A DNA stretch of 61,000 nucleotides from Promethearchaeota archaeon (GCA_048938445.1 JBHLME010000007.1:1-61000), one strand, 5' to 3'; positions 23,439-47,759 are shown, numbered from the stretch's first letter. Numbers and translations: made by a program. The notes: generated from the letters alone by a model not told the origin.

Positions 23439-23450
23439 GGTGGTCATAAA

Positions 23451-25376: not shown

Positions 25377-26783
25377 TTATTCAATTAAAAGTCCACGTTG
25401 TTTGAGTCCTTCTCTCATGTCTGCTTGAAATGGTCCTGGAGTTCCTTCGATAAAAGCATCAACAATATCTTGGTTTTCAATAACTCTAGAATCTCGCTTT
25501 TTTGCCTTCTCTTCAGCCAGTGATGAAATTACCATCTTTGCTATTGATTGAAATTGAGGTGGTGATAATTGTATTAATTCATTGAAAATTTCTTTAGTTT
25601 CAGGAATCCATTTAATTCCATCTCCTTGTTCTACTTTTTCTTTTGCATGACCAATCCCAAATTCACGGCTGGTTATGATATCATCAAGATAATTTTGAAT
25701 GGAATCAACATATTTTGTTGTTGCTTCTTCATTTAATATCACGGCTTTTTTTGCCCATTCCTTACAATAATTACATTCATCACACATCGCGATACAGTTT
25801 TGTTTTTTAAAAAAATCTATGAACCCATTTAATTTATTGTTATCAATATATAATTTAGCTGTAGATTCCTTTCCCAGCGTTCTACCTATTCCCGCGTTGG
25901 GATCAGTCTGTTCTAAGCCTCCATGTGACATTGAAAATCCTTGAATGATATCCACGAGATTACCATCATACTTTCTTTCGGAAAATGCTTTTACCGCTCT
26001 GACAATCCAATCTGTTGACATTCGCCTTCCAGCGATTTTAAAATCAGTTATTCCAATTTCTTCATAATGAGATAAATCCTCAGGACGGACCCAACGACAT
26101 TTGATAATTTCTTCTGGTTGAGAATATTTAATAATATTACAATTTAAAATGCATGTATCTATATAATTTCGCTCAAATTCTTGATGTGTTTGAGATGCGT
26201 GTCCTAATGTATTATAATGATAATGCCGAAAAGGGCACTGATATAAACAACCATCTGTTAAAAGCAAAACTATTTTACACTTTATTGCTTCTTTAATTTT
26301 ACTCAATGTTTTGAAATCCCGATTAATCATCACATCGGGCGTTATTTCGTCAGCACCGAGCATTTCATAGAACTTAGCACGGTTTACACTATTTACATGT
26401 GATATCGTAGAAACTCGGACTTTTAACTTTGGGAATTGCTCTTTAATAAGCTGTATTAAAAATGGAATAGTTACAATCACACTATCGGCTCCAATATCAC
26501 TAATCCATTGAAGATAATTGATAATTTCTTTATGGTAATGTGAATCATATTCCATATTATTCATGCAAGGAGCATTGAGTAAATAAGAAAATTCCATTTT
26601 ATTTTTATGTAATTTTTTGACATATTCTATGATATTCTCTTCAGTTACCTTAGGTAATAAAAAGGAAGGACGACCCCCTCCCACGATGCTATGATCTGTC
26701 ACACCATATAAATCTGCTACGGGATATTTAGCTAATTTATCTATTAACTCAAAATCCCAATTAGTAGCTACGTAGAAATTCAT
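25377..26783 (-). CDS. U32-family Fe-S protein with C-terminal DUF2621/PCP_red-like module
   Basis: GGGRP, YLLNAPC, VST...VNS, INRDF, CLYQCP..HASQ...CILNC, WVRPEDL, FKIAGR, CIAMCDECNYC. ATG at 26783 follows AAGGTGA. Confidence 0.85.
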   Translation of the reverse strand: MNFYVATNWDFELIDKLAKYPVADLYGVTDHSIVGGGRPSFLLPKVTEENIIEYVKKLHKNKMEFSYLLNAPCMNNMEYDSHYHKEIINYLQWISDIGADSVIVTIPFLIQLIKEQFPKLKVRVSTISHVNSVNRAKFYEMLGADEITPDVMINRDFKTLSKIKEAIKCKIVLLLTDGCLYQCPFRHYHYNTLGHASQTHQEFERNYIDTCILNCNIIKYSQPEEIIKCRWVRPEDLSHYEEIGITDFKIAGRRMSTDWIVRAVKAFSERKYDGNLVDIIQGFSMSHGGLEQTDPNAGIGRTLGKESTAKLYIDNNKLNGFIDFFKKQNCIAMCDECNYCKEWAKKAVILNEEATTKYVDSIQNYLDDIITSREFGIGHAKEKVEQGDGIKWIPETKEIFNELIQLSPPQFQSIAKMVISSLAEEKAKKRDSRVIENQDIVDAFIEGTPGPFQADMREGLKQRGLLIE

Positions 26784-26883
26784 TAAATTCACCTTCTTTA
26801 ATTTCAGTTTTTTTCATAGTTTTTAATTTTTAATAAAAAATTTAATTAAATATTAACTTTTTTCAAAATTTCACCAATTTTTA

Positions 26884-28938
26884 TTATTTAATTGCAATCT
26901 CATGAGCCTTTGCGTTTAGGGGTAATAATGGTGCACATGCCATTAGCTTTGTGACATCACCCTCGACAACATACGTTCCAGACATAGTTGCTTGGATTGG
27001 ATCTGATTCTCCTGAATTAACCTTTTTAATCGTATTAAAATTTGTTTTGTGGATGATAGTTGGTACCTCAGGTCCAGAATATTCACCCATTCCCCAAGCC
27101 ATCTTACTATTATTAATATATTGCCAGTAATTCATCTCAGGTTTATCAGTTATAGAATATTGGAATACTAATGTCCCAATAGGTTCTAACATTTGCTCTA
27201 TATCTGGCAATTCATTATAAGCTTTCATAAAGCGTGTAAGATAAGCTTCCCATTCTTCTTTTGTCTCTAATTTTATTTCTTCTTTCATCTGCATTTTTTT
27301 TTTCACCTCCTTTCTTTTTTGATTAGAAATTTGTTTATCATTTATATTTCCCTCATCTTTGGCTTTCTGAGGAAGTAATTCACTGCTAAATGGTAAAGAC
27401 TTGACTGCATATATCTCCTCTTCACTCATGTAGCGCGTTAAATCAATATTCCTTTCGATTAAAAAATCAATATAATCATGCTTAAACGGTTGAGGAACTA
27501 ATTCAATTATAATTGCTATTAATAATTCTTTATTTACTTGTTTTAAACCTTGTTTTTCTGCTGTTCTCTCTGCAGTAAATCCTATTCCCTTTATGGCAGC
27601 ATTCTGTATCTCTTTAGGAATAATTGTCATGACTTCATTTAAGAATGCTTGTGCTTCTGGATCCCATTCTATTCCAAAATATGTATCTGATTCTATATCT
27701 TTAGCAGGAACCTTCAATTTTCTTTCTTCTTTAGGTACAAACATTTCCCAAGTATTAAGATAATCATAGAGATATGACATGAATTCTTTATAAGTCTCTG
27801 TATTCCCTCCTTCAGGTTGAGAATATGCTTTCTTCACAAAATTATTACAATAAAAACATGTAACTCCACAAGATTCTGCACATCTAAGTCCTCCGTGAGG
27901 TAAGTTTTGAATAAAACCGTCTAACTCGTCTCCATCTAATATTGCATCAAAATCAGGAACACTTAACATTATACTTTGGTTATCTGCATCACAACCCATT
28001 TTTTCTTGCCGTGCTGAAAATTCAGAAAATTGATTTCCCGCCAGTATCAATGGATCTGATACGAATGAATAACCATTAAATATTTCTCCTAGATTACCAC
28101 GGAAATCCTTACTACTATAAGCTTTTAAAACATTAATTAACCATTTAGTCCCATATCTTCTACCAGAAATTTTAAAATAATCCATACCAATATCAATATA
28201 TTTATCGAGATCGGATGGTTGGATCCATCTTCCCATAATGACTTGCTCGGGATTGAAGCATTTTTGATTTTGACAAGCAATGGTTGCCCAATCATTATAA
28301 TATCCTTCTAAACAATCATGAGTTTGACTTGCATGAGAACATTCCGTATAATGGAAAAAGCGATATGGACATTCATTAAGACAACAATCATTAGTGAGTA
28401 ATTCAATATCACATTTTACTTTTTCTCGAATTTCTTTAAGAATTGGAAAATTTCGATTAAGCATTATGGATAAAGTTAAAACACCATCAGAACCGATAAT
28501 TTCTTCCCACTCTAATGCTCTTTTTAAAGAATTTATTTCAGATATTACAGAAACTTTCAATTTTAATTTAGGATAGTAGTTTTTAACAAAATTTGCTAAA
28601 TATGGATCACTCACAGTTAAATAATCCATTTCCATATCATCCATCCAATCCAATTCTTTTAATGCTTTGGTTTGCTCTTCCGAATTAAATTTATAATATC
28701 CCAAGCATTCACCATTCCATAACCATGTAAATTTTAGATTTAAATTATGGACCTTGTTAATAAATGCTTCAATTTCTGATATATCTCTTTTAGCCATTAA
28801 AAAAAAGGGACGACCAGAACCAGTAAAACTCATGTCATATGTCCCATAAAAATCATGAACAGTTTGCTTTAATTTAAAATCGTCCTCTATTAGATTCAAT
28901 AAATCTGGCTTCCAGTTGCATGCTAATGAGATTCTCAA
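26884..28938 (-). CDS. U32-family Fe-S protein fused to DUF2621/PCP_red-like and SCP2-like domains
   Basis: GSGRP, LNRNF, CLNECP..HASQ, WIQPSDL, FKISGR, CAESCGVTCFYC. Then the IEWDPEA module and a C-terminal DPIQATMSGTYVVEGDVTKLM. TTG start after GAGGTGA. Confidence 0.85.
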   Translation of the reverse strand: MRISLACNWKPDLLNLIEDDFKLKQTVHDFYGTYDMSFTGSGRPFFLMAKRDISEIEAFINKVHNLNLKFTWLWNGECLGYYKFNSEEQTKALKELDWMDDMEMDYLTVSDPYLANFVKNYYPKLKLKVSVISEINSLKRALEWEEIIGSDGVLTLSIMLNRNFPILKEIREKVKCDIELLTNDCCLNECPYRFFHYTECSHASQTHDCLEGYYNDWATIACQNQKCFNPEQVIMGRWIQPSDLDKYIDIGMDYFKISGRRYGTKWLINVLKAYSSKDFRGNLGEIFNGYSFVSDPLILAGNQFSEFSARQEKMGCDADNQSIMLSVPDFDAILDGDELDGFIQNLPHGGLRCAESCGVTCFYCNNFVKKAYSQPEGGNTETYKEFMSYLYDYLNTWEMFVPKEERKLKVPAKDIESDTYFGIEWDPEAQAFLNEVMTIIPKEIQNAAIKGIGFTAERTAEKQGLKQVNKELLIAIIIELVPQPFKHDYIDFLIERNIDLTRYMSEEEIYAVKSLPFSSELLPQKAKDEGNINDKQISNQKRKEVKKKMQMKEEIKLETKEEWEAYLTRFMKAYNELPDIEQMLEPIGTLVFQYSITDKPEMNYWQYINNSKMAWGMGEYSGPEVPTIIHKTNFNTIKKVNSGESDPIQATMSGTYVVEGDVTKLMACAPLLPLNAKAHEIAIK

Positions 28939-28942
28939 ATAA

Positions 28943-30094
28943 TCACCTCTTTATGACACCTTTTTCCATATTATTCATTTTATTTTTTATAATGTCTATG
29001 ATTTTATCCTGGTGTTGAATGTTTCCATTATGTAATTTTTTTGCGTATTCTATACAATACTCATCGATTTCGTTTTCTTCGGGATAATGTAATTGATATG
29101 GAAATTTTTCACAAAATTCATTAATAATTTCTGGTTTTAATTGCATCATTGAATTCTTAACCCCATCTCGTGACCAGTAGTTTCCATATGGTTGGGGTAT
29201 GTTCAAAATTTCTTCAAAATTTACTGAAAGTTCTTTATTATCATAATTATTAATAATTCTCACTATTTTATCAGTTGAAAAACCACCAGTATAGAGAACG
29301 TAAGTTTCATATCCCAAATTTTCATATTGTTCAATATTACTTGGTGAAATCCAACCAGATTTTAAGAGATTTTCAGGATTTTCTAACCGTTCTTTCCAAC
29401 AATAAAGTAAGGGATAATCAAATTCATTTTCGACATCGGATAATTCTTCTTGATTAGGGAATACAGGAGAATTTATCGTCCGATGACTTTGCATGTTATG
29501 ATGTTGATACCAATGTATGCAACCCCAATTACAACCAATGTTTAATGGTAAAATGCAGTCAATTTCTTTAGTTTTCTTAAATTCTTGCTTGATCTTGATA
29601 AAATTTTTTAAAATTCTAAAATATCGAATAATATCTGGATGTAGGATAATATTGTCTGCTCCTATTTCAAAAAAAATCTTACCACGGTTCAAGGATGTTA
29701 CATATTGCGAATATGATAAGTATATCTTTGAGGAAAAATAATTTTCTTTAACAAAACCAATGTTATTTGGCGAAGATACAAGTAAGTTTTTATATTCCAA
29801 TCCTTGCAATGTTTCAAATAATTTCTTAGTAGCTTTATATTGTTCCATGTGAGCTTCAAGGTTCCCTTGACAAGTTGAATCAATTCCTGCTATAGGGATG
29901 ATACCATTATCTTGGATTGTTTTAGTATAATTCTTAAATTCTTCAAACGTAGGATTCTTTTTAGGTAAAAAAATTGATCCATTCCCAATTGGATTTTGAG
30001 GTACATGAACAATAACGTGTGAAACTGAGAGGTTCTTTTTTCCAATTTGGGTAATTAAATCTTCATCGTAATCTCCATCAATTATTAACTTCAT
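28943..30094 (-). CDS. Divergent U32-family protein
   Basis: IGNG, VTSLNRG, HPDIIR, CNWGC..H..SH, WISPSNIEQYE align with the two neighbouring U32 proteins. The FKxxGR motif is absent. Confidence 0.7.
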   Translation of the reverse strand: MKLIIDGDYDEDLITQIGKKNLSVSHVIVHVPQNPIGNGSIFLPKKNPTFEEFKNYTKTIQDNGIIPIAGIDSTCQGNLEAHMEQYKATKKLFETLQGLEYKNLLVSSPNNIGFVKENYFSSKIYLSYSQYVTSLNRGKIFFEIGADNIILHPDIIRYFRILKNFIKIKQEFKKTKEIDCILPLNIGCNWGCIHWYQHHNMQSHRTINSPVFPNQEELSDVENEFDYPLLYCWKERLENPENLLKSGWISPSNIEQYENLGYETYVLYTGGFSTDKIVRIINNYDNKELSVNFEEILNIPQPYGNYWSRDGVKNSMMQLKPEIINEFCEKFPYQLHYPEENEIDEYCIEYAKKLHNGNIQHQDKIIDIIKNKMNNMEKGVIKR

Positions 30095-30140
30095 TGTTTA
30101 CTCTTTTTTTTGTTTAATTTTTATTAAAAAAAAATAAATT

Positions 30141-31751
30141 TTATTTATATGAATCAATTCCTGCCTTACAACCCATTGCTAAGAAATCTACCATGGTTCC
30201 ATTGTAGTCATTTTCAATCTTATAGTAGTGGCCATTAGGTGTGAAAGTAACTCCCCAAATTGCTTTCTTAGAATCACTTTGGAGAGGTGTTCTTTCTAGA
30301 AAATCTTTCATTAATGGATGAAAATGTACTGGTACATCTTCAGTTTTATCACATGACATCCCAAAACATAAACGTTCAATTTTATCTGAATTCCAGCTAA
30401 ATGTGTAATTTAAATGAGCGGCCTTCATGCATCCTTCCATCGCTTCCTTTGATACAGCTTTAAATCCCAGGTCTTCAACAAGTGCTACACAATTTTCATA
30501 AGATGATTTGGGTGGTTCTTTAAGCATGAAATAAATATTTACTGTCTTATGTAGAAAATCAAATGCAAATAGACTAAATGCTGTTAATCCATGCCTTTCA
30601 AAGTATTTTTTATAGTTCTTCATGCTTTCTGGTATATATTTCATTGAGAAAATTGGTTCAATTGAACCTGGAACAATAAATGGCCAGATTTTTGATAATC
30701 CTGTACTTGCATCTACATCTACACCATAACCCATCATTTGAAAAGTTTCCATGGTTTCCCTCATCATGCTATGAATCGGATGATCATCTTTTTCAATTAA
30801 TCCCTCATTAACAGCGTGTGTATAAGGATCTGGATCATGAGGCATGAAAAATTCAACATATCTAAGTGCAACATCTCTTTTTTCAACTGGTTTGGTTGTA
30901 GTTCGAATTGAGACTGGTGCTCCTGCAAAGAAATCTTTATAGGCTTCTATGGCTTTCTGAGCCGTGTTCTTATTGAATTTCACTCCTGTTATATCACAAA
31001 TTTTCTCAAAATCTATTAACATTTGATTCAAATCATTTGTACATTTAAAGTTAGATTGTACTTTAGCCAGATATCTATTATAATCAACTCCCATTTTTTC
31101 CAGATCCGCTGCCATAACCGGTTGAAATGCAGTAGGTGTAACTTCAAACAAAGCAACTATGAGATCTACTTCTGCTACAATCTTTCCTTGTCGCTCTTTA
31201 CATTTAATTTCAGTCTTTTCTAATAGTTCAGGTGCTACAACAGGTCTTACCATTTCTGGCATGTTTAAAACAACCTTATCATAGAGTTCTTTTACTTCTG
31301 GGGCCCATTCCATTGTACTAGACACAGCTGAATTATCAGTTATTGAAGCAGATCCAATTACTTTTTCATGAGCAACTACTTGTAGAGGTAATAAAGGAGC
31401 GCAAGCCATTAGTTTAGCCATATCCCCTTCAACCACGTAAATACCTTGCATGGTTGCTTCTATTGGATTTTGTTCTCCGTTAAATACCTTTCTCACGACT
31501 TCAAAATCAGCTTTATGAACGAGTTTAATATAATCTCCATTTTCAGGATTCTCACCCATCCCTCCACGAATACCATTTTTATCAAAAGCGTGCCAAAAGT
31601 TCAACTCTGGATGATCATTTAAACTATATTGGAATATAGTTGGTTCAATATTACTTAAAATCGGAGTAACATCGGGTAAAGCATTAAATGCTTTGGTTAA
31701 TTTTTCTATATAATCAGTCCAATTAGTTAAATCTCGCAATTCATTTATCAT
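30141..31751 (-). CDS. ABBA-type (NphB/CloQ family) aromatic prenyltransferase with N-terminal SCP2-like and DUF2621/PCP_red-like domains
   Basis: The C-terminal ~300 aa follow the NphB/CloQ motif order: DPY..AV.EGL....HPI, YGVD....GLSKIW, F.RHGL....FDF..KTVNIYF, LVEDLGF, YTFSWNSDKIERLCF, G.TFTP.GHYYKIE.DY. Confidence 0.85.
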   Translation of the reverse strand: MINELRDLTNWTDYIEKLTKAFNALPDVTPILSNIEPTIFQYSLNDHPELNFWHAFDKNGIRGGMGENPENGDYIKLVHKADFEVVRKVFNGEQNPIEATMQGIYVVEGDMAKLMACAPLLPLQVVAHEKVIGSASITDNSAVSSTMEWAPEVKELYDKVVLNMPEMVRPVVAPELLEKTEIKCKERQGKIVAEVDLIVALFEVTPTAFQPVMAADLEKMGVDYNRYLAKVQSNFKCTNDLNQMLIDFEKICDITGVKFNKNTAQKAIEAYKDFFAGAPVSIRTTTKPVEKRDVALRYVEFFMPHDPDPYTHAVNEGLIEKDDHPIHSMMRETMETFQMMGYGVDVDASTGLSKIWPFIVPGSIEPIFSMKYIPESMKNYKKYFERHGLTAFSLFAFDFLHKTVNIYFMLKEPPKSSYENCVALVEDLGFKAVSKEAMEGCMKAAHLNYTFSWNSDKIERLCFGMSCDKTEDVPVHFHPLMKDFLERTPLQSDSKKAIWGVTFTPNGHYYKIENDYNGTMVDFLAMGCKAGIDSYK

Positions 31752-32167
31752 ATTCTTAACCTCTTTTATAATTTATTTTCTTTAAATTTTTTTTAATTAT
31801 TTATTACTTTTTCATGAGCTACTACTTGTAATGGTAAAAAGGGAGCGCAAGCCATTAATTTAGTCATATCCCCATCAACCACATAAAGTCCTGCCATAGT
31901 AGCTTGGACAGGATTTTGTTCTCCAGAAAAAACTTTTCTCACGATATCAAAGTTAGCTTTATGGATGAGTTTGATATAATCTGTATCTTCTGTATTTTCA
32001 CCCATCCCTCCTCGAATACCATTTTTATCAAAAGCGTGCCAAAAGTTCAGCTCTGGATGATCATTAAGATTATATTGGAAAATAGTAGGTTCTACATTTG
32101 TTAATAGTGGTTTGATTTCTGGTAAATCATTAAATTCTTTTGTTAACCTTGTTATATAATCCGTCCA
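31356..32167. repeat. Direct repeat of a 366-bp SCP2-like domain (31356-31721 and 31802-32167)
   Basis: Two copies offset by 446 nt. Hand alignment gives 96/122 identical residues. They share the identical stretch cgaataccatttttatcaaaagcgtgccaaaagttca. Confidence 0.9.
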
Positions 32168-33304
32168 TTCGCTAATATCTAATAATTTATGTTCCTTAGA
32201 TGCGGAAACATCAATAGTATCGCTACAAGGACAACGTGTGCATATCGGTAAAAGTTTATCATTTATCATCCCCTGACGAAATTTACGTATTTGATCTGAA
32301 TCCCACACTTCAGTTAATGGTTTCTCAGTTATATTGCCAAAACTTTTTACTATATATGGACAGTTATAGACGGAACCATCTGGTCCCACATTTGGTGTTA
32401 GTGGCGGCATTAAAGTTAATTGACAGATCGGTTGTTCTTGTTCTCTTAGGGTTCTCCTCCAATAAATTTCAGGATGATCCCCAAAAAATTTTGAGAAAAA
32501 CATTACTTGAATTCCAGATTTCTTCCCTTCTTCTTTCGCAGCATTTATACTATTGATTAATTGTTGTTCTGTATATGATAATTCTCCAACATGTCCATTA
32601 ATCTCAACATCCTCACCAATCCATTTTTTCATTAATTTTTTAGATTCTTTTATCTCATCTTCAGTGATTACATGTCCAAAGATAAAATTTACAGATCCTA
32701 CACCTAATTCAGCACCTAATTTAACCATATCGGGCAATACGTTAACATTTTCATTGACAATAGTGCAATGAATCCATGTCGACAAACCTGCATCTACAAG
32801 CATTTTAATAGCATCTATAGATTTTTGGGGCGCTTTTGTTGAACCCCGGATCTTGCCATCTATTTCACCTGGTGCATTCAATGATACCTGAATATTGACA
32901 AAATTCTCTAATGCTGCTAAACGTTTCACAATAGATTCAGTTATCATCGTACCATTTGTAGACATTATTTGATTTATTCCTTGAGCATCAAAATATTCGA
33001 TCATTTCTATCATTTCATTAATAACGAATGGTTCACCCCCTAAATGGAATAAAACCTTCGCATCCTTAAATCCTTCTTTAATTTGCTCTAATGACATGGA
33101 TGGAATCTTACGGCCTTTCATGTGTTTTACAAGGCACATGTAGCAATTTAAATTGCAATTGTAACTAGCATAAAAACACACATCACCAAGACCACCAGAA
33201 AGTCCATTTTCTCCAATTTTTTTTATAACTTCTAAGGGAGTATCCTTTCCCAATGGCATGGCTTCACGAAGTGATACACCACATCCTATTTGTTCTTCAT
33301 TCAT
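31793..33304 (-). CDS. Radical SAM / twitch-SPASM protein with C-terminal SCP2-like domain
   Basis: CNLNCYMC, GGEPF, STNG, IRG, C...PDGSVYNCP..FGNI....L.EVW...CTRC, then the SCP2-like domain. Confidence 0.9.
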   Translation of the reverse strand: MNEEQIGCGVSLREAMPLGKDTPLEVIKKIGENGLSGGLGDVCFYASYNCNLNCYMCLVKHMKGRKIPSMSLEQIKEGFKDAKVLFHLGGEPFVINEMIEMIEYFDAQGINQIMSTNGTMITESIVKRLAALENFVNIQVSLNAPGEIDGKIRGSTKAPQKSIDAIKMLVDAGLSTWIHCTIVNENVNVLPDMVKLGAELGVGSVNFIFGHVITEDEIKESKKLMKKWIGEDVEINGHVGELSYTEQQLINSINAAKEEGKKSGIQVMFFSKFFGDHPEIYWRRTLREQEQPICQLTLMPPLTPNVGPDGSVYNCPYIVKSFGNITEKPLTEVWDSDQIRKFRQGMINDKLLPICTRCPCSDTIDVSASKEHKLLDISEWTDYITRLTKEFNDLPEIKPLLTNVEPTIFQYNLNDHPELNFWHAFDKNGIRGGMGENTEDTDYIKLIHKANFDIVRKVFSGEQNPVQATMAGLYVVDGDMTKLMACAPFLPLQVVAHEKVINN

Positions 33305-33338
33305 ATTTTATTCACTTTTTTTGTCTTTTTTTGGTTTT

Positions 33339-34754
33339 TTATTTTTGATATAATGCAAATTGAACATTGCTCATTTCATCAAATCCTTCTGGATTATTGA
33401 ATCCCAGTCCAGGCATCATCCATCTTGGATTTGCTTTACCATAATTTCTTACAACTTTAAAAAGATCTACCTCTTTGATCTTTGGAGATATATAAAATCT
33501 TGGTTTTAGTAGATTTTCTCCTAATTGTATGATTCCTTCTTCTTCGGCTATTAGCTGAAGGGGTGTATGGGGATAAATTCTCATCCCTACAAAGACTATT
33601 ACATCTCCATCTCCTTGCCACAAGTTCCCTTTATGACTTTTTATTGATTCAAGCCTATCTAAGGAAGCTTGAACCGTTTCGAGAGTCTCTCCCGGACCTC
33701 CAACAATAATATGAATTAATTGTTCTATCTCCAAATCTACACATTTTTCTGATGTAAGGATTGCATCATCGGGAGATCTCTTCTTGTTCATGTTTTCCAA
33801 CATTTCTTCAGATAAGGATTCGATACCTGTTGCAAAATGAACTGCACCACTCTCTTTCATCAAGGGCATTAAATCAAGAAATTCTTTACTTGGAACATAG
33901 TTAGCACCCCATTTTACATCGATTTTAGAGTTTATAATTTCTTGGCAAGTGTTCCTTACATGATTATGATTTAAATTAAATATACTATCAACAAAAAATA
34001 AGTTTTTTATTCCATAATTATTTACCATTAATTCAAGCTCTGTTGCGATACTTTTAGGAGACCGATACCGAACATTTGAACCTTCAATATATCTATAACT
34101 ACAATAAATGCAATTCATTGGGCATCCACGCTTGCTTTGAATGTTTCCCCAAGTAACATTAGATTTTTTCAATGGATCAATAAAATAGGCATCATTTTCC
34201 AATAATTCTCTTGTAGGTATAGGAAGATCATCTAGATTTTCAACACGCCATGGTGGCTTCTGATGATATTTTCCATTTTTATCTATGAAACATATGCCTT
34301 TCTCTAGGTTCCTAATATCTTCATCATTTTCGATTTTCTTTAATATTTCAGCTAATACATATTCTCCATCACCAACCACGCCAATATCATGATTCAAATC
34401 CCTAAGAATTTCTTCTGAAAATATTGAAAAACCCGCGCCACCTAAAATGATAGGGATCTCTGGTTCTACAAGGTCTTTTATAAATTGAATTATATTTTTG
34501 ACCGGTAAGTAAAAAAATAGATTTCCGGGGTATGTCGTTGAGTCAACGTTTCGAATTGAAATACCTATTAATTGCGGAGAAAAATCATCAATTATCTTTG
34601 AAATATCCCTTTTATGATCATTACTTAATGTTAAATCAATCAACTTTACTTCATGACCTTGATTAAGGAGATACGCTGCTATATATGCTTCTCCTATGGG
34701 TGGAACCATGACGTGAACTATTTCCCGACTTCCGGAGATTATTAACACTCTCAT
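33339..34754 (-). CDS. Cobalamin-dependent radical SAM protein (resembles the 'lipid biosynthesis B12-binding/radical SAM' family)
   Basis: PPIG, GISIRNVD, ILGGAGFSIF, QSKRGCPMNCIYC, FVDSIFN, GGPGET, GMRIYPHTPL, LLKPRFYISP. Confidence 0.88.
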   Translation of the reverse strand: MRVLIISGSREIVHVMVPPIGEAYIAAYLLNQGHEVKLIDLTLSNDHKRDISKIIDDFSPQLIGISIRNVDSTTYPGNLFFYLPVKNIIQFIKDLVEPEIPIILGGAGFSIFSEEILRDLNHDIGVVGDGEYVLAEILKKIENDEDIRNLEKGICFIDKNGKYHQKPPWRVENLDDLPIPTRELLENDAYFIDPLKKSNVTWGNIQSKRGCPMNCIYCSYRYIEGSNVRYRSPKSIATELELMVNNYGIKNLFFVDSIFNLNHNHVRNTCQEIINSKIDVKWGANYVPSKEFLDLMPLMKESGAVHFATGIESLSEEMLENMNKKRSPDDAILTSEKCVDLEIEQLIHIIVGGPGETLETVQASLDRLESIKSHKGNLWQGDGDVIVFVGMRIYPHTPLQLIAEEEGIIQLGENLLKPRFYISPKIKEVDLFKVVRNYGKANPRWMMPGLGFNNPEGFDEMSNVQFALYQK

Positions 34755-34787
34755 TCTTTTTTACCTTCCTTTTTCACACTTTAAATT

Positions 34788-36188
34788 TTATTCAATTAAT
34801 TCAATTTCTTCTTCTAAAACATTTTCCACTTTATGATCATGGTCGTTTTCATGCCAACAAAAAGGGAACGATCCAAAAAAATCACCTGTGATATATTCAG
34901 CAGTCACACGACAACCGCCTCCACAATATTTGAGATGATGGCAAGATGCACACTTTCCCTTTATTTTCTTTCTATCCCGAATATCCTTATAGAGTTGGGA
35001 ATTTAATACATCTTCAAAATTATCTTTTAATGCATTTCCAAGGGTTAATTTTGTTGGATATCCAGCAGGATATATTGTTCCATCTATACCAATTCCCATC
35101 ATCGTCCTACAAGCAAGACAACCAACTCCCCATTCAATTGCAGCCAGTTCCTTATCGTCTTTGGGTTGTTCCATAAAAGGCATCATGTCATATATTTCAT
35201 AAGCGGGTAAAGTACCAGCATCACCTTTTTTTATTGTTTCTATAGCATGCTTGTATTTAAAATCATACATCTTTTTGTATTCTTCCGTATTGAGACCAAT
35301 TTCATCCCAATATTCAGCAGCTCGATTTTGTTTTACCACGCATCTAAAATATGGTTGTGAACCCCATTTTTCTGACAATTCTTTAAGTTCTTCAAGCTCA
35401 TCAACATTTTGTTTCATGATTGTAATTGATGAGCAGACAAAAATCCCATATTTCAAACAAACATCAATTGCTTTTTTAGCATATTCTAAGGAATTGGGAA
35501 ATCCTCGAAGTTCATCATTTTTTTTTGGATCAGAACTGTCAAAACTGACGAATACATGACTGATATTGTTTTCCTTACACATTTTGGCAAAATTTTCATC
35601 AAACCTTACACCATTGGTAATGAGCGCATGGATGTAATCCTTATCTTTACAAAATTTCATGATCTCCCCAATATCTTTTCTTAGAGTAGGTTCACCACCA
35701 AACCATACAAAACAAGCATGTCTTCCTTGTTTTCTTAAGCCTTCTTCAACATTTTCTATGATATGGCACCATTCTTTCGCTGATATTTCGGGACGAGGTA
35801 TGTGATCATCCGCTGCACAATGAAGACATTTTTGATTACACTTATCCGTAAGATACATCGCAAAATGGATATTACCTGGATGAAATCCTCTTTCCAACTT
35901 TTGCCAAGACACTTTCAGGCGATCTTTTATATCCTTGAGTTCAATGTATCGATCAACATCAATCCCTAATGATGTCAAGTCTTCAACCATTATGGATTTA
36001 AATGCTTCTGGAATGATATCAAATATCCCCATAACAACATCAGCATCATTAATATAAGCACCATTTCTATCCAGGCATCGATTTTCAGCGGCTTCTACTA
36101 TTAAGGGTTCTACAGAAGGACGGAATCCTTGTGGCATTTGTTCAACAATTCTACCAAACAATACTTGCGTTTCTTTTTCCCATTCCAT
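34788..36188 (-). CDS. Radical SAM/SPASM protein with N-terminal DUF2621/PCP_red-like module
   Basis: CNQKCLHC, FGGEPTLR, TNG, SFD; SPASM CASCHHLKYCGGGCR...PFC. GAGGTGA precedes the start. Confidence 0.9.
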   Translation of the reverse strand: MEWEKETQVLFGRIVEQMPQGFRPSVEPLIVEAAENRCLDRNGAYINDADVVMGIFDIIPEAFKSIMVEDLTSLGIDVDRYIELKDIKDRLKVSWQKLERGFHPGNIHFAMYLTDKCNQKCLHCAADDHIPRPEISAKEWCHIIENVEEGLRKQGRHACFVWFGGEPTLRKDIGEIMKFCKDKDYIHALITNGVRFDENFAKMCKENNISHVFVSFDSSDPKKNDELRGFPNSLEYAKKAIDVCLKYGIFVCSSITIMKQNVDELEELKELSEKWGSQPYFRCVVKQNRAAEYWDEIGLNTEEYKKMYDFKYKHAIETIKKGDAGTLPAYEIYDMMPFMEQPKDDKELAAIEWGVGCLACRTMMGIGIDGTIYPAGYPTKLTLGNALKDNFEDVLNSQLYKDIRDRKKIKGKCASCHHLKYCGGGCRVTAEYITGDFFGSFPFCWHENDHDHKVENVLEEEIELIE

Positions 36189-36199
36189 AAAATTTCACC

Positions 36200-37597
36200 T
36201 CAGATTTGTTTTTGAACAATCGATTTTTCACTAAGATAATCTTCATGTTCATGATCATCATCATGCCAGCAGAAAGGTAGAGCTGCTAAAAAATCACCTG
36301 TTTCATTTTCAGCATGCACCCTACAACCACCACCACACATCTCGAGATGATGACAAGTTGAGCATCTTCCTTTTATCTTCCTATCTCTAATAGCTTTAAA
36401 CATGTCAGAATCCATAATTTCTTGAAAGCTTTGTGTTAAAACATTGCCTAAAGTTAACTGAGAGGGATAATCACAAGGGAAGAAATCTCCATTTACATCG
36501 ATACCCGATACAGACCTACAAGCTTGGCATCCTACACCCCATTCTAATGCAGTTCGTTCTTCATCCGTGCGAGGGCATTCCATAAAGGGAACCATATCAT
36601 AAGTATAAACCTTGTTGAGAAAATTGGCTTCACCTTTCCTAACAGCTTCAACTACATGCTTAAACTTGAAGTCATAAAATTGGCGATATTGATCATAATC
36701 CAATCCGATATCTTCCCAATTTTTCTCTGCTGTTCTTTGCTTGATAACTGCTCTAAAATAAGGTAATGCACCCATAGATTCTAATTTCTCTTGGATTTTA
36801 TCTAACTCATCAAAATTCTCTTGTTGAACTGTGGCGGTACAAATAACGAGATGACCATAGTCAAGTGCTAATTTAATAGCTTTTTCAGCAGCTTCTTGTG
36901 CTTTTGGATGCCCTCTTATTTTAGCAGCCCTTTCGGGATAAACACTATCATAGCTTATGAATACGTGATGCATCTTAACATCAGCACATAGTTTAGCTAA
37001 GTCTTCATTAAATAATAGACCATTTGTAGAAATTGCTTGAAAATATCCTTTTTCACCAGTATATTTAATAAGTTCTTTAATATCATTGCGAAGAGTGGGT
37101 TCTCCTCCAAACCAAATATAGCAACCTCGACGATCTTGTTTGCGTAATGTTTGTTCAACATTTTCTAAAATATCAATCCATTGTTCTGTCGATAATTCTG
37201 GACGTTTACCCATTAATTCAGCAGCACAATGAAGACATTTTTGATTGCATCGATCAGTTAAATACATGGTAAAATGATATACTCCTGGGGCCCATGCTCC
37301 TCCTATATCATCCCATGTGCGAGCATATGCTTTTCTCGCTTCAGATAATTTTATATATCGATCTGTATCAATCCCTAGTTTCGTCAAATCTTGTACAACA
37401 GCAGGTTGAAATGCCTCTGGCGTTATTTCAAATAATGCCGATAATAAATCATCCTTATTGACATATCCAGAATTCCTCAACCGTGCTGTCTTTTCAGCAG
37501 CCTCATGGAGCATTGGTGCTATTGATGCACGGAACATTTCAGGTGTCTGCGCCATGATTACATCATACATTCCTTTAATTTCTTTTTTCCATTCCAT
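36200..37597 (-). CDS. Radical SAM/SPASM protein with N-terminal DUF2621/PCP_red-like module, paralog of 34788-36188
   Basis: CNQKCLHC, FGGEPTLR, STNG; SPASM CQAC...GDFFPC...CSTCHHLEMCGGGCR...PFC. Confidence 0.9.
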   Translation of the reverse strand: MEWKKEIKGMYDVIMAQTPEMFRASIAPMLHEAAEKTARLRNSGYVNKDDLLSALFEITPEAFQPAVVQDLTKLGIDTDRYIKLSEARKAYARTWDDIGGAWAPGVYHFTMYLTDRCNQKCLHCAAELMGKRPELSTEQWIDILENVEQTLRKQDRRGCYIWFGGEPTLRNDIKELIKYTGEKGYFQAISTNGLLFNEDLAKLCADVKMHHVFISYDSVYPERAAKIRGHPKAQEAAEKAIKLALDYGHLVICTATVQQENFDELDKIQEKLESMGALPYFRAVIKQRTAEKNWEDIGLDYDQYRQFYDFKFKHVVEAVRKGEANFLNKVYTYDMVPFMECPRTDEERTALEWGVGCQACRSVSGIDVNGDFFPCDYPSQLTLGNVLTQSFQEIMDSDMFKAIRDRKIKGRCSTCHHLEMCGGGCRVHAENETGDFLAALPFCWHDDDHEHEDYLSEKSIVQKQI

Positions 37598-37702: not shown

Positions 37703-38446
37703 TTAGATTACCCTCATTTGTTTAAAATCTTTATTAAAATCAGAATAATTATTAATTATGAGATGAGGAATATGAAAGGTTGAGTAATAAAAACTTGATC
37801 CCAAAAATCCATGAAGAAAATAAGAAGAAACAGTACTTCCATGAAATTTATTATATTGGAATTCAACTTTTTGATAAAAATTAGTATTTTTTATTTTTGT
37901 TTTTTTCCAAAATCTAAATAAAGTAGGGGCTTTTCCTTTTATTTTGGGAAATTGTCTAATGTAATTCTCAGTAGGATCATTATAGAGGTCACCTTTCTGC
38001 TCAACATTTGGTTTAAGCATGGTGGGTTGATATGTTATGGGAATGGATGATTCTTCTGATGTTTGAGAATCATCATTAGTATTAAGCTCACAAAAATCTA
38101 TATATAGGTATATTTGGAACTTCCTGCTAATAAACACGACTTTTATGTAATGATAAAAGGTCGTGTCAAGGAGAAACAAAAGATTTATTATAATAATAAG
38201 ATCTATCAAATGTCCAAGGGTAAATCCCCCTAGATTAGAAGATGATGGAATAGATGGAATTATCTCAATTCTCGGAAAATATGGAAAAAATAGAGAATTA
38301 CCAGATAAAATATAATCCTGAAAAAATATTGAAAAAACAGAAGTGTTTGTTAATTGTAAATATATGAATATAACTGGAAGCAATGAGAGAAATGAAATAA
38401 CTAAGAATAGTGCTATAAATTTAATGTTTTTTTTCTCTTTATGCAT
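37703..38446 (-). CDS. Hypothetical membrane protein upstream of the operon
   Basis: 247-aa ORF with two hydrophobic segments and atypical composition; no motif recognised. Confidence 0.45.
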   Translation of the reverse strand: MHKEKKNIKFIALFLVISFLSLLPVIFIYLQLTNTSVFSIFFQDYILSGNSLFFPYFPRIEIIPSIPSSSNLGGFTLGHLIDLIIIINLLFLLDTTFYHYIKVVFISRKFQIYLYIDFCELNTNDDSQTSEESSIPITYQPTMLKPNVEQKGDLYNDPTENYIRQFPKIKGKAPTLFRFWKKTKIKNTNFYQKVEFQYNKFHGSTVSSYFLHGFLGSSFYYSTFHIPHLIINNYSDFNKDFKQMRVI

Positions 38447-46234: not shown

Positions 46235-46318
46235 AATCATTGAATATAAAAAAAACTTAATTATAGATTACTAAACAATAAATAAAAAAAGGTTTTTACT
46301 ATTAAGAAAATAAGATTA

Positions 46319-47665: not shown

Positions 47666-47759
47666 ATTTTGATTTTTAATTATAAGTAAGTTATCCTAAA
47701 TATTTATAAGATTAATTAAATCAATTTTATAGATTTTTTTTGCTTAAATTAACACCTAA

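What the first reader, a model, noticed from the sequence alone, without database searches (positions are those of the whole stretch)
25377..37597. Eight-gene operon for a candidate O2-independent prenylated-aromatic (quinone-like) pathway in an Asgard-like archaeon
Seen in sequence: eight co-oriented genes with gaps of 4-100 nt, several preceded by AGGT(GA)-type Shine-Dalgarno motifs. In transcription order they encode rSAM/SPASM, rSAM/SPASM, B12-rSAM, rSAM/twitch-SCP2, SCP2-ABBA prenyltransferase and three U32 proteins. Established: the U32 proteins UbiU/UbiV, RlhA and TrhP are Fe-S, prephenate-dependent O2-independent hydroxylases; UbiUV works with the SCP2 protein UbiT in anaerobic ubiquinone synthesis; NphB/CloQ enzymes prenylate phenols, naphthalenes and phenazines; B12-rSAMs commonly methylate. 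Inference: prenylation, anaerobic hydroxylation, methylation and lipid-binding SCP2 domains together mirror the logic of the Ubi pathway built from different parts. The product could be an unknown electron carrier or meroterpenoid. I know of no described pathway with this composition.
Basis: partly seen in the sequence, partly recalled or inferred. Interest (0 to 1): 0.95.

Follow-up and report, generated by a model that had tools for sequence, protein, structure and literature searches.

The report
Asgard oxygen-free prenyl-aromatic lipid operon
A conserved but unstudied operon of Loki-type Asgard archaea combines an aromatic prenyltransferase, iron-sulfur enzymes of the oxygen-free hydroxylase family, radical-SAM enzymes and lipid-carrier domains, so it probably builds or tailors an unknown greasy aromatic lipid without oxygen, though probably not a classical respiratory quinone.

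Summary
Eight co-oriented minus-strand genes (25377-37597, gaps of 4-100 nt) encode two rSAM/SPASM enzymes, a B12-rSAM, an rSAM-SCP2 fusion, an SCP2-ABBA prenyltransferase and three U32-like Fe-S proteins.

- One 85-residue PCP_red/DUF2621-like helical domain sits on five of the eight proteins. In this genome it occurs only in this cluster and a second copy on another contig.
- g7 also carries an SCP2 domain.
- A small membrane protein and a Ta0216-type B12-rSAM lie upstream and are conserved.

The gene order recurs in many Asgard MAGs but is patchy: the prenyltransferase was found in 19 of 301 sampled genomes of the phylum.

The "Ubi-like logic" is plausible, but the "electron carrier" reading is weak:
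- No NuoH, NrfD, NarI/HdrE, cytochrome b, MqnA or UbiC family was found in the 96.5%-complete genome.
- About half of the g8-type U32 loci lack the prenyltransferase.
- The closest bacterial U32 relatives sit in fatty-acid-synthesis operons.
- Polar-lipid genes (CDP-alcohol transferase, GT2, LuxE/LuxC) recur nearby.

My best reading is an oxygen-independent, SCP2-chaperoned pathway to a prenylated aromatic membrane lipid of unknown structure. My searches found no paper describing it. This scan has already flagged the same cluster in at least 10 other windows.

The parts
36200..37597 (-). g1: X domain (residues 1-85) + radical SAM + SPASM, 465 aa
   Evidence: Pfam Radical_SAM 3.6e-19 and SPASM 2.6e-10. 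Best NCBIfam matches are NirJ1/AhbD/AhbC-type, 124-136 bits, far below their cut-offs of 500-650. The CX3CX2C motif is visible in the sequence.
34788..36188 (-). g2: X domain + radical SAM + SPASM, 466 aa, paralogue of g1
   Evidence: Pfam. AhbD-type 145 bits, below the 500 cut-off. Orthologues are 72-89% identical in relatives.
33339..34754 (-). g3: B12-binding radical SAM enzyme, 471 aa
   Evidence: Pfam B12-binding 2.5e-16 and Radical_SAM 5.3e-21. TIGR04072 'lipid biosynthesis B12-binding/radical SAM protein' 278 bits (cut-off 360); BzaD 209 bits (cut-off 450). The closest solved chain is 6wte, a tryptophan C2-methyltransferase, at 4.7e-20.
31793..33304 (-). g4: radical SAM + short SPASM/twitch + C-terminal SCP2, 503 aa; an optional member
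   Evidence: Pfam. NF033640 twitch-type 2e-19. Present in only 2 of 45 archaeal loci and in L042 in two copies. No solved relative at E<=1e-5.
30141..31751 (-). g5: SCP2 (1-135) + X domain (about 145-229) + ABBA aromatic prenyltransferase (241-524), 536 aa
   Evidence: PTase_Orf2 8.5e-52, 176.8 bits against a cut-off of 22. Solved relatives: AmbP1 2.4e-33, 5ynt 1.8e-32, AmbP3 2.5e-32, 4ee6 6.2e-32, NphB-type 1zb6 3e-20, CloQ 1.4e-12. Its SCP2 is 74% identical to that of g4.
28943..30094 (-). g6: divergent U32-like protein, 383 aa, without X domain or second Cys motif
   Evidence: No Pfam or NCBIfam hit. BLASTP to g8 2e-24 and to g7 2e-15. Keeps the Cys equivalents of C76, C182, C186 and C218. 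Found with g7 in 7 of 45 loci. It is never seen without g7; g7 without g6 is seen only on two short contigs.
26884..28938 (-). g7: U32-like + second Cys motif + X domain + SCP2, 684 aa
   Evidence: Peptidase_U32 1.7e-9, DUF2621 0.0016, SCP2 0.0018. 32% identical to g8 over 494 columns, 5e-85.
25377..26792 (-). g8: U32-like Fe-S protein + second Cys motif + C-terminal X domain (probable start at ATG 26783, 468 aa)
   Evidence: Peptidase_U32 1.6e-13. AF2 model pLDDT 88. Best solved fold is U32 Mk0906 (5d88), E 1.3e-10, TM 0.74 on the target. Invariant C76, C182, C186, C218 and C333, C337, C340, C343 in 37 sequences.
37703..38446 (-). g0: small membrane protein; only the first 105 residues or so (two hydrophobic segments) are conserved
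   Evidence: No Pfam hit. tblastn matches 28-38% identical upstream of g1 in relatives. Alignment of 8 copies.
40251..41711 (-). B12-binding radical SAM enzyme (Ta0216 type), the most persistent neighbour; here separated from g0 by an inserted plus-strand B12-rSAM gene (38754-40199)
   Evidence: Pfam. TIGR04190 262 bits, cut-off 500. Present in 19 of 45 archaeal loci and directly upstream and co-oriented in most.
37343..37597 (-). X domain copy 1 (g1 N-terminus). The other copies are at 35934-36188 (g2), 31056-31319 (g5), 27424-27678 (g7) and 25380-25619 (g8).
   Evidence: All five copies weakly match PF11084 DUF2621 (7e-6 to 1e-2); the g7 copy also matches PCP_red at 0.0026. Alignment A2 has invariant W, P, P. 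AF2 gives four main helices, pLDDT 91. The two top Foldseek rows are PCP_red-type NMR structures 2kru and 2l09, E 0.1. There are 9 copies in the genome, all in the two clusters.
26887..27273 (-). SCP2 domain of g7. The other copies are at 31796-32191 (g4 C-terminus) and 31347-31751 (g5 N-terminus).
   Evidence: 16 of 16 aligned segments match PF02036, best 2.1e-7. The profile weakly matches solved SCP2 proteins 4uei (0.01), 3bn8 and 3cnu.
45290..49949 (+). Loosely linked lipid genes: CDP-alcohol phosphatidyltransferase-like (45290-46234), GT2 glycosyltransferase (46319-47665) and a LuxE-like acyl-protein synthetase (48648-49949), followed by three B12-rSAM genes up to 54569
   Evidence: NCBIfam and Pfam. 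The cdp and/or GT2 genes lie near the cluster in 15 of 45 archaeal loci, in varying arrangement. In L083 they form one co-oriented array with the g8-type U32, LuxE and LuxC.

Best explanation
The eight genes are an accessory operon of Loki-type Asgard archaea. A small upstream membrane protein belongs with them, and ancestrally so did a Ta0216-type B12-radical-SAM gene. The operon most likely makes or tailors a hydrophobic, prenylated aromatic lipid without O2.

Proposed course (all steps inferred from family membership unless marked):
1. The soluble ABBA prenyltransferase g5 attaches a prenyl chain to an aromatic acceptor. The family is shown; the substrate is unknown.
2. The greasy intermediate is held by SCP2 domains. 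Here they are fused to g4, g5 and g7; in most relatives SCP2 is a free 130-aa protein.
3. The U32-type Fe-S proteins (the g6+g7 pair, and g8) oxidise or hydroxylate it. By analogy with UbiU/UbiV the oxygen would come from prephenate, which this genome can make.
4. The B12-radical-SAM enzyme g3 adds a methyl group to carbon.
5. The two AhbD/NirJ-like SPASM enzymes g1 and g2 do radical side-chain chemistry such as decarboxylation or C-C bond formation.
6. The 85-residue PCP_red/DUF2621-like domain on g1, g2, g5, g7 and g8 is a shared non-catalytic adaptor that ties these enzymes to one substrate, carrier or partner.

The product is more likely a membrane-resident specialised lipid, possibly connected to the nearby polar-lipid genes, than a classical respiratory quinone.
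For: Shown:
- Gene order, domains and short gaps.
- The prenyltransferase is a full-length ABBA barrel (176.8 bits; AmbP1 2.4e-33 over residues 239-522).
- g8 folds like the solved U32 protein.
- Four Cys are conserved across g6, g7, g8 and the bacterial homologues. A second CX3CX2CX2C motif is present in g8, a CX3CX3CX2C variant in g7, and it is absent from g6.
- SCP2 matched in 16 of 16 segments.
- The X domain occurs 9 times in the genome, only in this cluster and its paralogue on contig C144.
- Among 1.84 billion representatives only 272 match the X domain at E<=1e-3. Of 59 long ones scanned, 14 carry PTase_Orf2, 14 U32, 7 radical SAM, 3 SCP2, 3 a 2Fe-2S ferredoxin, and 1 each LuxC, HpaB, PNPOx and a methyltransferase. 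These partners are mostly enzymes that decorate aromatic rings or lipids.

Conservation:
- 13 of 18 related stretches are collinear.
- g1+g2+PT+SCP2+g8 lie together in 15 of 45 archaeal loci.
- 18 of 19 genomes with the prenyltransferase also have g8.

Other support:
- Prephenate supply: chorismate synthase and CM_2 are present.
- g3's nearest named relatives methylate aromatic carbon (6wte, a tryptophan C2-methyltransferase; BzaD) or belong to lipid clusters (TIGR04072).
- Three canonical U32 genes elsewhere in the genome (153-265 bits, against 36-47 bits for the cluster copies) could cover RNA-type roles.
- Precedent for U32 + SCP2, including a UbiT-UbiU fusion with ubiV next to it: PMC6747719 (passages read). 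Prephenate as the O donor: PMC10990095 (passages read).
Against: - No chemistry is shown, and every catalytic role rests on family membership. None of the NCBIfam matches reaches its curated cut-off.
- The Cys spacing (CXnCX3CX31C) differs from the CX6CX15CX3/4C motif described for most U32 families (against PMC6747719).
- No gene for an aromatic precursor was identified in the cluster.
- 23 of 45 archaeal g8-type loci lack the prenyltransferase in the retrieved stretch. Several of these are short contigs, but L061, L062, L071, L074 and L088 span about 20 kb. The U32/SCP2/rSAM core therefore also works without aromatic prenylation.
- The nearest bacterial homologues of g8 (43-48% identity) lie in fatty-acid synthesis operons. 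In other Asgard the U32 sits between GT2 and LuxE/LuxC. Both point to acyl or polar lipids rather than aromatics.
- Patchy distribution and several paralogous clusters per genome fit specialised metabolism, not an essential cofactor.
- Co-transcription is untested.
Confidence: 0.48

Rival explanations
1. Membrane-lipid tailoring. The U32, SCP2 and radical-SAM core acts on acyl or isoprenoid lipid chains or on a polar lipid head group. The prenyltransferase is an optional add-on in some lineages, and the product is a modified membrane lipid rather than a prenylated aromatic.
For: - g8-type U32 lies in FabG/FabF/ACP/PlsX/MaoC operons in Dehalococcoidia. The neighbour families recur in 18-25 of 34 loci.
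- L083 holds a co-oriented array of CDP-alcohol transferase, GT2, U32, LuxE, LuxC and SDR. In L085 a LuxE-like gene abuts g8.
- cdp and/or GT2 lie near the cluster in 15 of 45 loci.
- g3's best family name is 'lipid biosynthesis B12-binding/radical SAM protein'.
- The window holds seven B12-rSAM genes, two LuxE-like genes and a thiolase/DUF35 pair.
- PT-less clusters exist.
Against: - Where the prenyltransferase is present it sits inside the operon and carries the same X domain as the other enzymes.
- 18 of 19 PT genomes have g8.
- All characterised members of PTase_Orf2 prenylate aromatic acceptors (general knowledge; review PMC7253389, passages read).
- The characterised U32 reactions are on sp2 ring carbons (PMC10990095 and PMC11574389, passages read).
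- The lipid genes are linked only loosely and in variable arrangement.
Confidence: 0.22
2. One reading: the operon makes a new membrane electron carrier, a quinone or methanophenazine analogue, for anaerobic energy metabolism.
For: - Prenylation + oxygen-free hydroxylation + C-methylation + SCP2 mirrors ubiquinone logic.
- One close solved relative of the prenyltransferase is 4ee6 (6.2e-32). I recall this as the phenazine prenyltransferase EpzP; the PDB title says only 'Prenyltransferase'.
- X-domain fusions to an HpaB-type hydroxylase, a methyltransferase and a 2Fe-2S ferredoxin occur in other organisms.
Against: - Not found in this 96.5%-complete genome: NuoH, NrfD (35), NarI/HdrE (36), cytochrome b (37), MqnA/D (100), UbiC (101).
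- Patchy, accessory distribution: 19 of 301 genomes.
- Two paralogous clusters per genome.
- Loki-type Asgard archaea are regarded as fermentative syntrophs (my own knowledge).
Confidence: 0.12
3. A RiPP cluster. The SPASM and B12 radical-SAM enzymes, the prenyltransferase and the U32 proteins modify a ribosomal peptide.
For: SPASM enzymes also match peptide maturases such as MftC, PqqE and WgkB at 1e-25 to 1e-31. B12-rSAM methylases and prenyltransferases do occur in RiPP pathways (general knowledge).
Against: - No conserved small precursor ORF was seen. The conserved upstream ORF is a two-segment membrane protein.
- The N-terminal domain of g1 and g2 is the helical X domain, not a recognisable RRE.
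- Up to three SCP2 lipid-binding domains per cluster.
- No protease or transporter lies within the operon.
Confidence: 0.04
4. There is no common pathway. The genes are neighbours by descent only, and the U32 proteins serve RNA hydroxylation as TrhP and RlhA do.
For: The only NCBIfam hit of g8 is TrhP, at 24.6 bits against a cut-off of 534.
Against: - Collinearity across genera with 50-90% identity.
- A shared domain exclusive to the clusters.
- Fusions of U32 with SCP2.
- Three canonical U32 genes elsewhere in the genome.
Confidence: 0.03

Closest known systems
UbiT/UbiU/UbiV O2-independent ubiquinone hydroxylation system of Proteobacteria (PMC6747719, PMC10990095; passages read)
   Same: U32-family proteins with four conserved Cys, in adjacent genes, working beside an SCP2 lipid-binding protein. 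A U32-SCP2 fusion exists in both: UbiT-UbiU in Zymomonas, g7 here. The substrate is hydrophobic and the setting is anaerobic. The prephenate pathway is present.
   Different: No orthology: the UbiU and UbiV models are not hit, and the Pfam U32 match is only 36-51 bits. The Cys spacing differs, and g7 and g8 have a second 4-Cys motif. There are three paralogues rather than two. An X domain is present. The host is archaeal. There are no Ubi methyltransferases and no UbiA-type prenyltransferase in the cluster. The genome lacks recognisable quinone-using modules.
ABBA (PTase_Orf2) aromatic prenyltransferases: AmbP1, AmbP3, 4ee6, NphB, CloQ
   Same: Full-length match to the ABBA barrel (E 8.5e-52 to Pfam; 1e-12 to 2e-33 to solved members).
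   Different: Archaeal clade with an N-terminal X domain. Most members are 390 aa. 4 of the 112 listed relatives are 530-536 aa, long enough to also carry SCP2; P0005-P0007 match over the whole query, while P0070 was not checked. In the review I read (PMC7253389, passages) ABBA enzymes are described from bacteria and fungi. Acceptor and prenyl donor are unknown.
Class B (B12-binding) radical SAM methylases: TsrM (6wte), BzaD (TIGR04385), TIGR04072 lipid-cluster enzymes
   Same: B12-binding + radical SAM architecture with CX3CX2C. Best family scores 278 bits (TIGR04072) and 209 bits (BzaD).
   Different: Below every equivalog cut-off. The substrate is unknown.
AhbD/AhbC/NirJ radical SAM/SPASM enzymes of anaerobic heme and heme d1 synthesis
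   Same: Radical SAM + SPASM with 120-145-bit matches across the whole catalytic part. These enzymes remove or alter carboxylate side chains on aromatic macrocycles (my own knowledge).
   Different: Scores lie far below the cut-offs (500-650). There is an extra N-terminal X domain. No tetrapyrrole genes are in the cluster.
PCP_red (PF08369) / DUF2621 (PF11084) small helical domains, e.g. the C-terminal domain of ChlB/BchB (2kru) and asr4154 (2l09)
   Same: Weak but consistent sequence matches for all five copies. The two top Foldseek rows are these structures.
   Different: All scores are below the Pfam cut-offs. Foldseek E is 0.1. In the VIA-wide search generic AAA+-lid-like helical bundles score as high (Z 7.8 against 6.7 and 5.7). 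The function of the family is unknown. Here the domain is fused to enzymes of three unrelated folds.

Membership tests
UbiT/UbiU/UbiV system | Peptidase_U32 domain (PF01136) in two adjacent proteins | tested here: met
   g7 37.7 bits and g8 50.9 bits against a cut-off of 22.4. g6 qualifies only through paralogy to g8, 2e-24.
UbiT/UbiU/UbiV system | Four conserved Cys able to bind a 4Fe-4S cluster | tested here: met
   C76, C182, C186 and C218 are invariant or nearly so in 37 g8 orthologues and in g6, g7 and the bacterial homologues. The spacing differs from CX6CX15CX3/4C (PMC6747719). Metal binding itself was not tested.
UbiT/UbiU/UbiV system | SCP2 accessory protein encoded with the U32 genes | tested here: met
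   SCP2 is fused to g7, g5 and g4. A free SCP2 gene lies next to g8 in 20 of 45 loci.
UbiT/UbiU/UbiV system | Orthology to UbiU or UbiV | tested here: not met
   No NCBIfam model other than TrhP is hit, and that at 24.6 bits against a cut-off of 534. The closest solved relative is the uncharacterised Mk0906.
UbiT/UbiU/UbiV system | Embedded in a ubiquinone pathway (UbiA, UbiD/X, UbiE/G, 4-hydroxybenzoate supply) | tested here: not met
   No UbiC was found. The cluster's prenyltransferase is ABBA, not UbiA. Three UbiA-family genes and one UbiD lie on other contigs. No class I methyltransferase is in the operon.
UbiT/UbiU/UbiV system | Prephenate-dependent hydroxylation of a ring carbon | not testable with these tools
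   Only the supply side could be checked: chorismate synthase and CM_2 are present.
ABBA aromatic prenyltransferase (PTase_Orf2) | Full-length match to the family profile and to solved ABBA barrels | tested here: met
   176.8 bits against a cut-off of 22, profile positions 3-283 of 287. AmbP1 chain residues 2-289 align to query residues 239-522.
ABBA aromatic prenyltransferase (PTase_Orf2) | Prenyl transfer to an aromatic acceptor | not testable with these tools
   Needs an enzyme assay.
Class B radical SAM methyltransferase | N-terminal B12-binding domain + radical SAM core with CX3CX2C | tested here: met
   Pfam. The motif is visible in the g3 sequence.
Class B radical SAM methyltransferase | Membership of a named equivalog (TIGR04072, BzaD, TsrM-type) | tested here: not met
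   278 bits against 360, 209 against 450, 96 against 500.
RiPP biosynthetic cluster | Precursor peptide gene and an RRE domain on the maturase | tested here: inconclusive
   I did no systematic search for small ORFs. The conserved upstream ORF is a membrane protein. The N-terminal domain of g1 and g2 is DUF2621/PCP_red-like.
PCP_red / DUF2621 domain family | Profile match above the curated cut-off, or a clear fold match | tested here: inconclusive
   PF11084 16-26.5 bits against a cut-off of 27.7; PF08369 18.2 against 32.5. Foldseek E 0.1. VIA Z 6.7 and 5.7 among unrelated helical bundles at Z up to 7.8.

The most novel reading that the evidence does not exclude
Loki-type Asgard archaea make, without oxygen, a previously unknown redox-active prenylated aromatic membrane lipid: an archaeal counterpart of ubiquinone built from unrelated parts (ABBA prenyltransferase, two-cluster U32 oxygen-inserting enzymes, radical SAM decarboxylase- and methylase-like enzymes). 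The pathway would be assembled as a metabolon through a dedicated PCP_red-like docking domain and SCP2 carriers. This would give the closest prokaryotic relatives of eukaryotes a membrane electron or antioxidant carrier that nobody has looked for.
Probability: 0.12. Interest if true: 0.9.

Novelty: new variant of a known kind. Interest (0 to 1): 0.62.

Why it matters
If the reading holds, three things follow.
- It would be the first pathway outside ubiquinone synthesis and RNA modification to use U32 oxygen-free oxidases.
- It would contain the first archaeal ABBA aromatic prenyltransferases.
- It would show a new way of organising a lipid pathway: one small adaptor domain grafted onto enzymes of three unrelated folds, plus SCP2 carriers.

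The product would be a new lipid class in Asgard archaea, whose membranes matter for ideas on how eukaryotes arose. It is also a candidate biomarker for anoxic sediments.

The question is directly testable by anaerobic expression, by identifying the ligand bound to SCP2, and by 18O-shikimate labelling. If the product instead proves to be a tailored ordinary membrane lipid, the finding still assigns a lipid role to a large, unstudied two-cluster branch of the U32 family.

Tried and rejected
- Promoter and terminator scan. The counts equal those of shuffled sequence, and the bacterial consensus does not apply to an archaeon, so it is uninformative. A T-rich tract follows g8.
- Expression. No RNA holder was listed for the stretch, so read laying was not run and co-transcription stays untested.
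- Complex prediction of the g5 SCP2 domain with the X domain. The verdict was 'no answer' (score 0.02 against a mark of 0.32), which is not evidence either way.
- Fold of the X domain. Foldseek found nothing at E<=0.001. VIA-wide gave only middling Z values among generic helical bundles. The profile against PDB sequences found nothing significant.
- g4 against PDB sequences: no match at E<=1e-5.
- Notes on this genome near the finding: none.
- Literature searches that returned nothing relevant: Asgard + 'aromatic prenyltransferase'; Lokiarchae/U32/radical SAM/SCP2; 'peptidase U32'/SCP2/radical SAM/lipid; TIGR04072; Dehalococc/U32/fatty acid, which returned one unrelated paper. Subscription journals are not in the library.
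- Considered and rejected:
  - A tetrapyrrole-modifying role, suggested by the AhbD/NirJ/BchE/PCP_red resemblances. There are no tetrapyrrole genes in the cluster, and the SCP2 and ABBA enzymes do not fit.
  - The U32-like protein as the missing enoyl reductase of the Dehalococcoidia FAS operon. Those loci often hold two SDR genes (44 members in 25 loci), so nothing need be missing.
- ESM Atlas. The best cluster (score 0.97) is probably the protein's own family. Its 'Bacteria 63%' label rests on few records and was used only as a lead.

Full report
OBSERVATION

One search lists eight minus-strand ORFs at the reported coordinates:
- g1 36200-37597
- g2 34788-36188
- g3 33339-34754
- g4 31793-33304
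- g5 30141-31751
- g6 28943-30094
- g7 26884-28938
- g8 25377-26792

The gaps are 11, 33, 34, 41, 46, 4 and 91 nt. Orthologues of g8 align from residue 4, and the database copy of the window's own protein has 468 residues. The real start is therefore probably the ATG at 26783, preceded by GAAGGTGA, which makes the last gap 100 nt. Similar GAGGTGA-type motifs precede g2, g3, g5 and g7; those of g1, g4 and g6 are weaker. A T-rich tract follows g8. The bacterial-type promoter and terminator scan was uninformative.

DOMAINS

- g1 and g2: Radical_SAM + SPASM.
- g3: B12-binding + Radical_SAM.
- g4: Radical_SAM + SPASM plus weak SCP2. NCBIfam also hits a twitch-type model.
- g5: SCP2 + PTase_Orf2 (8.5e-52).
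- g7: U32 + SCP2.
- g8: U32.

g6 has no family match. It is a divergent paralogue of g8 (2e-24) and of g7 (2e-15). g7 and g8 are 32% identical (5e-85).

The SCP2 calls are firm. All 16 of 16 aligned SCP2-like segments from the window and its relatives match PF02036.

No NCBIfam match reaches its curated cut-off. g1 and g2 are nearest to NirJ1/AhbD/AhbC (124-145 bits). g3 is nearest to TIGR04072 'lipid biosynthesis B12-binding/radical SAM protein' (278 bits against 360) and to BzaD (209 against 450).

By sequence against solved structures:
- The prenyltransferase is nearest to AmbP1, 5ynt, AmbP3 and 4ee6 (1.8e-32 to 2.4e-33), then to NphB-type and CloQ enzymes.
- g3 is nearest to the tryptophan C2-methyltransferase 6wte (4.7e-20).
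- g1 is nearest to PqqE, SkfB and a tetraether synthase, through the radical SAM core only.
- g8 is nearest to the uncharacterised U32 protein Mk0906.

(a) A shared 85-residue helical domain, which I call X.
- It lies at the N-terminus of g1 and g2, between SCP2 and the barrel of g5, and behind the U32 part of g7 and g8.
- All five copies weakly match PF11084 (DUF2621); one also matches PCP_red.
- The AF2 model (pLDDT 91) has four main helices.
- Its two top Foldseek rows are PCP_red-type NMR structures, but only at E 0.1. An exhaustive structural search puts generic helical bundles at the same level. The fold assignment is therefore tentative.
- In this genome X occurs nine times, only in this cluster and in a second cluster on contig C144.
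- In 1.84 billion representative proteins only 272 match at E<=1e-3.
- I scanned 59 of the longer hits among the 150 listed. Of these, 14 carry PTase_Orf2, 14 U32, 7 radical SAM (6 with SPASM), 3 SCP2, 2 the SCP2-like Alkyl_sulf_C, 3 a thioredoxin-like 2Fe-2S ferredoxin, and one each LuxC, HpaB, PNPOx and a methyltransferase.

(b) A conserved small membrane protein, g0, lies upstream of g1.

(c) A Ta0216-type B12-rSAM (40251-41711) lies directly upstream and co-oriented in most relatives. Here an extra plus-strand B12-rSAM gene separates it from g0.

(d) The U32 proteins carry conserved cysteines.
- C76, C182, C186 and C218 (g8 numbering) are invariant or nearly so in 37 orthologues.
- The same four are kept in g6, g7 and the bacterial homologues.
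- g8 carries a second motif, CX3CX2CX2C. g7 has a CX3CX3CX2C variant, and g6 lacks it.
- The g8 model (pLDDT 88) matches the solved U32 fold best (5d88, E 1.3e-10).

CONSERVATION AND DISTRIBUTION

Relatives of the prenyltransferase.
- 139 proteins match at E<=1e-3.
- 112 of the 120 listed rows carry PF11468.
- Wherever a source names them, the label is an Asgard one or marine sediment.
- Most are 390 aa (X + barrel). Four are 530-536 aa, long enough for an added SCP2; three of these match over the whole query.
- The SCP2 of g5 is 74% identical to that of g4, so the fusion looks recent.

Sampled genomes.
- In 301 sampled genomes of the phylum, 24 matched the g5 query. Five of these matched only through the SCP2 or X parts, so the prenyltransferase itself is in 19 of 301.
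- Those 19 are 17 of 68 genomes of the window's own family, one in another family of the same class, and the window's own genome.
- g8 orthologues (E<=1e-100) are in 23 of 301.
- 18 of the 19 prenyltransferase genomes have g8. Five g8 genomes have no prenyltransferase, and two of those five are only 82-83% complete.

Gene order.
- In 13 of 18 stretches cut from these genomes, g1, g2 and the prenyltransferase are collinear with the window.
- Two forms recur. The short form is g1-g2-(g3)-PT-free SCP2-g8. The long form has g6-g7 in place of the free SCP2.
- g4 is rare.
- The window's genome holds both forms. The short one, on C144, has two tandem prenyltransferases.

Named public records.
- A pattern scan of one genome per species returned 79 loci. 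45 are archaeal by title; one of these is titled Deferrimicrobium, at 70% identity, and is probably misbinned. The other 34 are Chloroflexota/Dehalococcoidia.
- Some of the 45 are the same contigs as the 18 stretches above, so the two sets are not independent.
- Among the 45: PT in 20, g1 in 19, g2 in 18, g3 in 15, the upstream B12-rSAM in 19, a free SCP2 in 20, the g6+g7 pair in 7, g4 in 2.
- The full set g1+g2+PT+SCP2+g8 is in 15 of the 45.
- 23 lack a prenyltransferase in the retrieved stretch. Several of these are short contigs, but L061, L062, L071, L074 and L088 span about 20 kb.

CONTEXT THAT BEARS ON FUNCTION

For the U32 analogy.
- The genome has chorismate synthase and a chorismate mutase domain, so prephenate is available.
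- Three canonical U32 genes lie elsewhere in the genome (153-265 bits, against 36-47 bits for the cluster copies). The cluster copies are therefore a separate, divergent branch.
- The papers I read in passages give the background. UbiU and UbiV form a heterodimer in which each protein binds a 4Fe-4S cluster through four Cys. UbiT is an SCP2 protein. A ubiT-ubiU fusion with ubiV downstream exists (PMC6747719). Prephenate is the oxygen donor, and most U32 subfamilies are uncharacterised (PMC10990095). As of 2024, characterised U32 oxidases act only in ubiquinone synthesis and RNA modification (PMC11574389).

Against a respiratory quinone.
- NuoH, NrfD, NarI/HdrE, cytochrome b, MqnA/D and UbiC families were not found in this 96.5%-complete genome.
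- Three UbiA-family genes and one UbiD lie on other contigs.

Pointing to lipids.
- The closest bacterial homologues of g8 (43-48% identity, without X) are in Dehalococcoidia. There, conserved neighbours are an SDR (25 of 34 loci), a FabF-type ketosynthase (24), ACP (21), PlsX (21), MaoC dehydratases (20) and an AMP-ligase (18).
- In the Asgard MAG behind L083, the g8-type U32 lies in one co-oriented array with a CDP-alcohol phosphatidyltransferase, a GT2, LuxE, LuxC, an SDR, two B12-rSAMs and a second U32. In L085 a LuxE-like gene abuts the U32.
- Homologues of the window's CDP-alcohol transferase (45290-46234) and/or GT2 (46319-47665) lie near the cluster in 15 of 45 archaeal loci, in varying arrangement.
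- The window itself holds two LuxE-like genes, seven B12-rSAM genes and a thiolase/DUF35 pair.

INTERPRETATION

The operon is real, conserved and accessory. The enzyme families, the SCP2 domains and the cluster-exclusive X domain argue that its proteins act on one hydrophobic substrate.

I commit to an oxygen-independent route to a prenylated aromatic lipid, with the steps given under Best explanation, at about 0.48. Only the family memberships, the Cys motifs, the domain sharing and the conservation are shown. Substrates, the order of steps, oxygen transfer, methylation and the adaptor role of X are all inferred.

The main rival (0.22) is that the U32/SCP2/rSAM core tailors ordinary membrane lipids and the prenyltransferase is an add-on. 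A RiPP reading gets 0.04 and mere neighbourhood 0.03.

COMPARISON AND NOVELTY

The cluster works like UbiTUV in outline but fails the tests for membership: there is no orthology and no Ubi context. My searches found no paper describing the cluster, archaeal ABBA prenyltransferases or this U32 branch. Subscription journals and supplementary files were not searchable.

Earlier notes of this scan describe the same cluster or its X domain in at least ten other windows of other genomes. They also describe U32 relatives beside lipid genes. Those are unchecked AI notes and not independent evidence. The points I rely on I tested here.

I rate it a new variant of a known kind, with interest 0.62.

Noticed in passing
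window 24644-25288 (+): A 214-aa protein with a BAR domain (Pfam BAR 5e-11, FAM92 2.5e-9) lies convergent to g8, directly beside the lipid cluster. BAR is a eukaryote-type membrane-curvature domain.
   Followed up: no
window 33339-54569: Seven B12-binding radical SAM genes lie in one 61-kb window: 33339, 38754, 40251, 42959, 50064, 51537 and 53130. Several are nearest to HpnJ, BchE or HpnR models but lie below their cut-offs.
   Followed up: partly
window 45290-54569 (+) and 55487-56722 (-): A second lipid-flavoured array: CDP-alcohol phosphatidyltransferase-like, GT2, a LuxE-like acyl-protein synthetase and three B12-rSAMs. Another LuxE-like gene lies on the other strand. The first two recur near the cluster in 15 of 45 archaeal loci.
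   Followed up: partly
L092-L104, L106-L126 (Dehalococcoidia/Chloroflexota MAGs): A two-Cys-motif U32 protein, 43-48% identical to g8 but without the X domain, sits inside the fatty-acid synthesis operon (FabG-like SDR, FabF, ACP, PlsX, MaoC dehydratases, AMP-ligase). Its role there is unknown.
   Followed up: partly
L083 2762-17928 (Asgard MAG titled CR_4): A long co-oriented array: DUF169, unknown, CDP-alcohol transferase, GT2, U32 with X domain, LuxE, LuxC, SDR, then two B12-rSAMs and a second U32 without X. A different assembly around the same U32 branch.
   Followed up: partly
G000 contig C144 (L045 1-11000): A second, short-form cluster in the same genome with two tandem prenyltransferase paralogues (68% and 50% identical to g5). 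It is cut by the contig end inside g8.
   Followed up: partly
window 31347-31751 and 31796-32191 (-): The SCP2 at the N-terminus of g5 is 74% identical to the SCP2 at the C-terminus of the preceding gene g4, but only 45% to that of g7. This suggests a recent local duplication that created the SCP2-prenyltransferase fusion. The fusion length (530-536 aa) is rare: 4 of 112 listed relatives.
   Followed up: partly
window 18297-23876 (+): A glycerol-3-phosphate-dehydrogenase-like trio (DAO+BFD, Pyr_redox_2, DUF1667), a dual-specificity phosphatase, and a thiolase plus DUF35/ChsH2-type OB protein (the pair that starts the archaeal mevalonate pathway, from my own knowledge) lie just downstream of the cluster.
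   Followed up: no
L044 12268-12465 and L034 19605-19805: Free-standing or truncated copies of the X domain lie next to the cluster in relatives. The L044 copy contains a stop codon.
   Followed up: no
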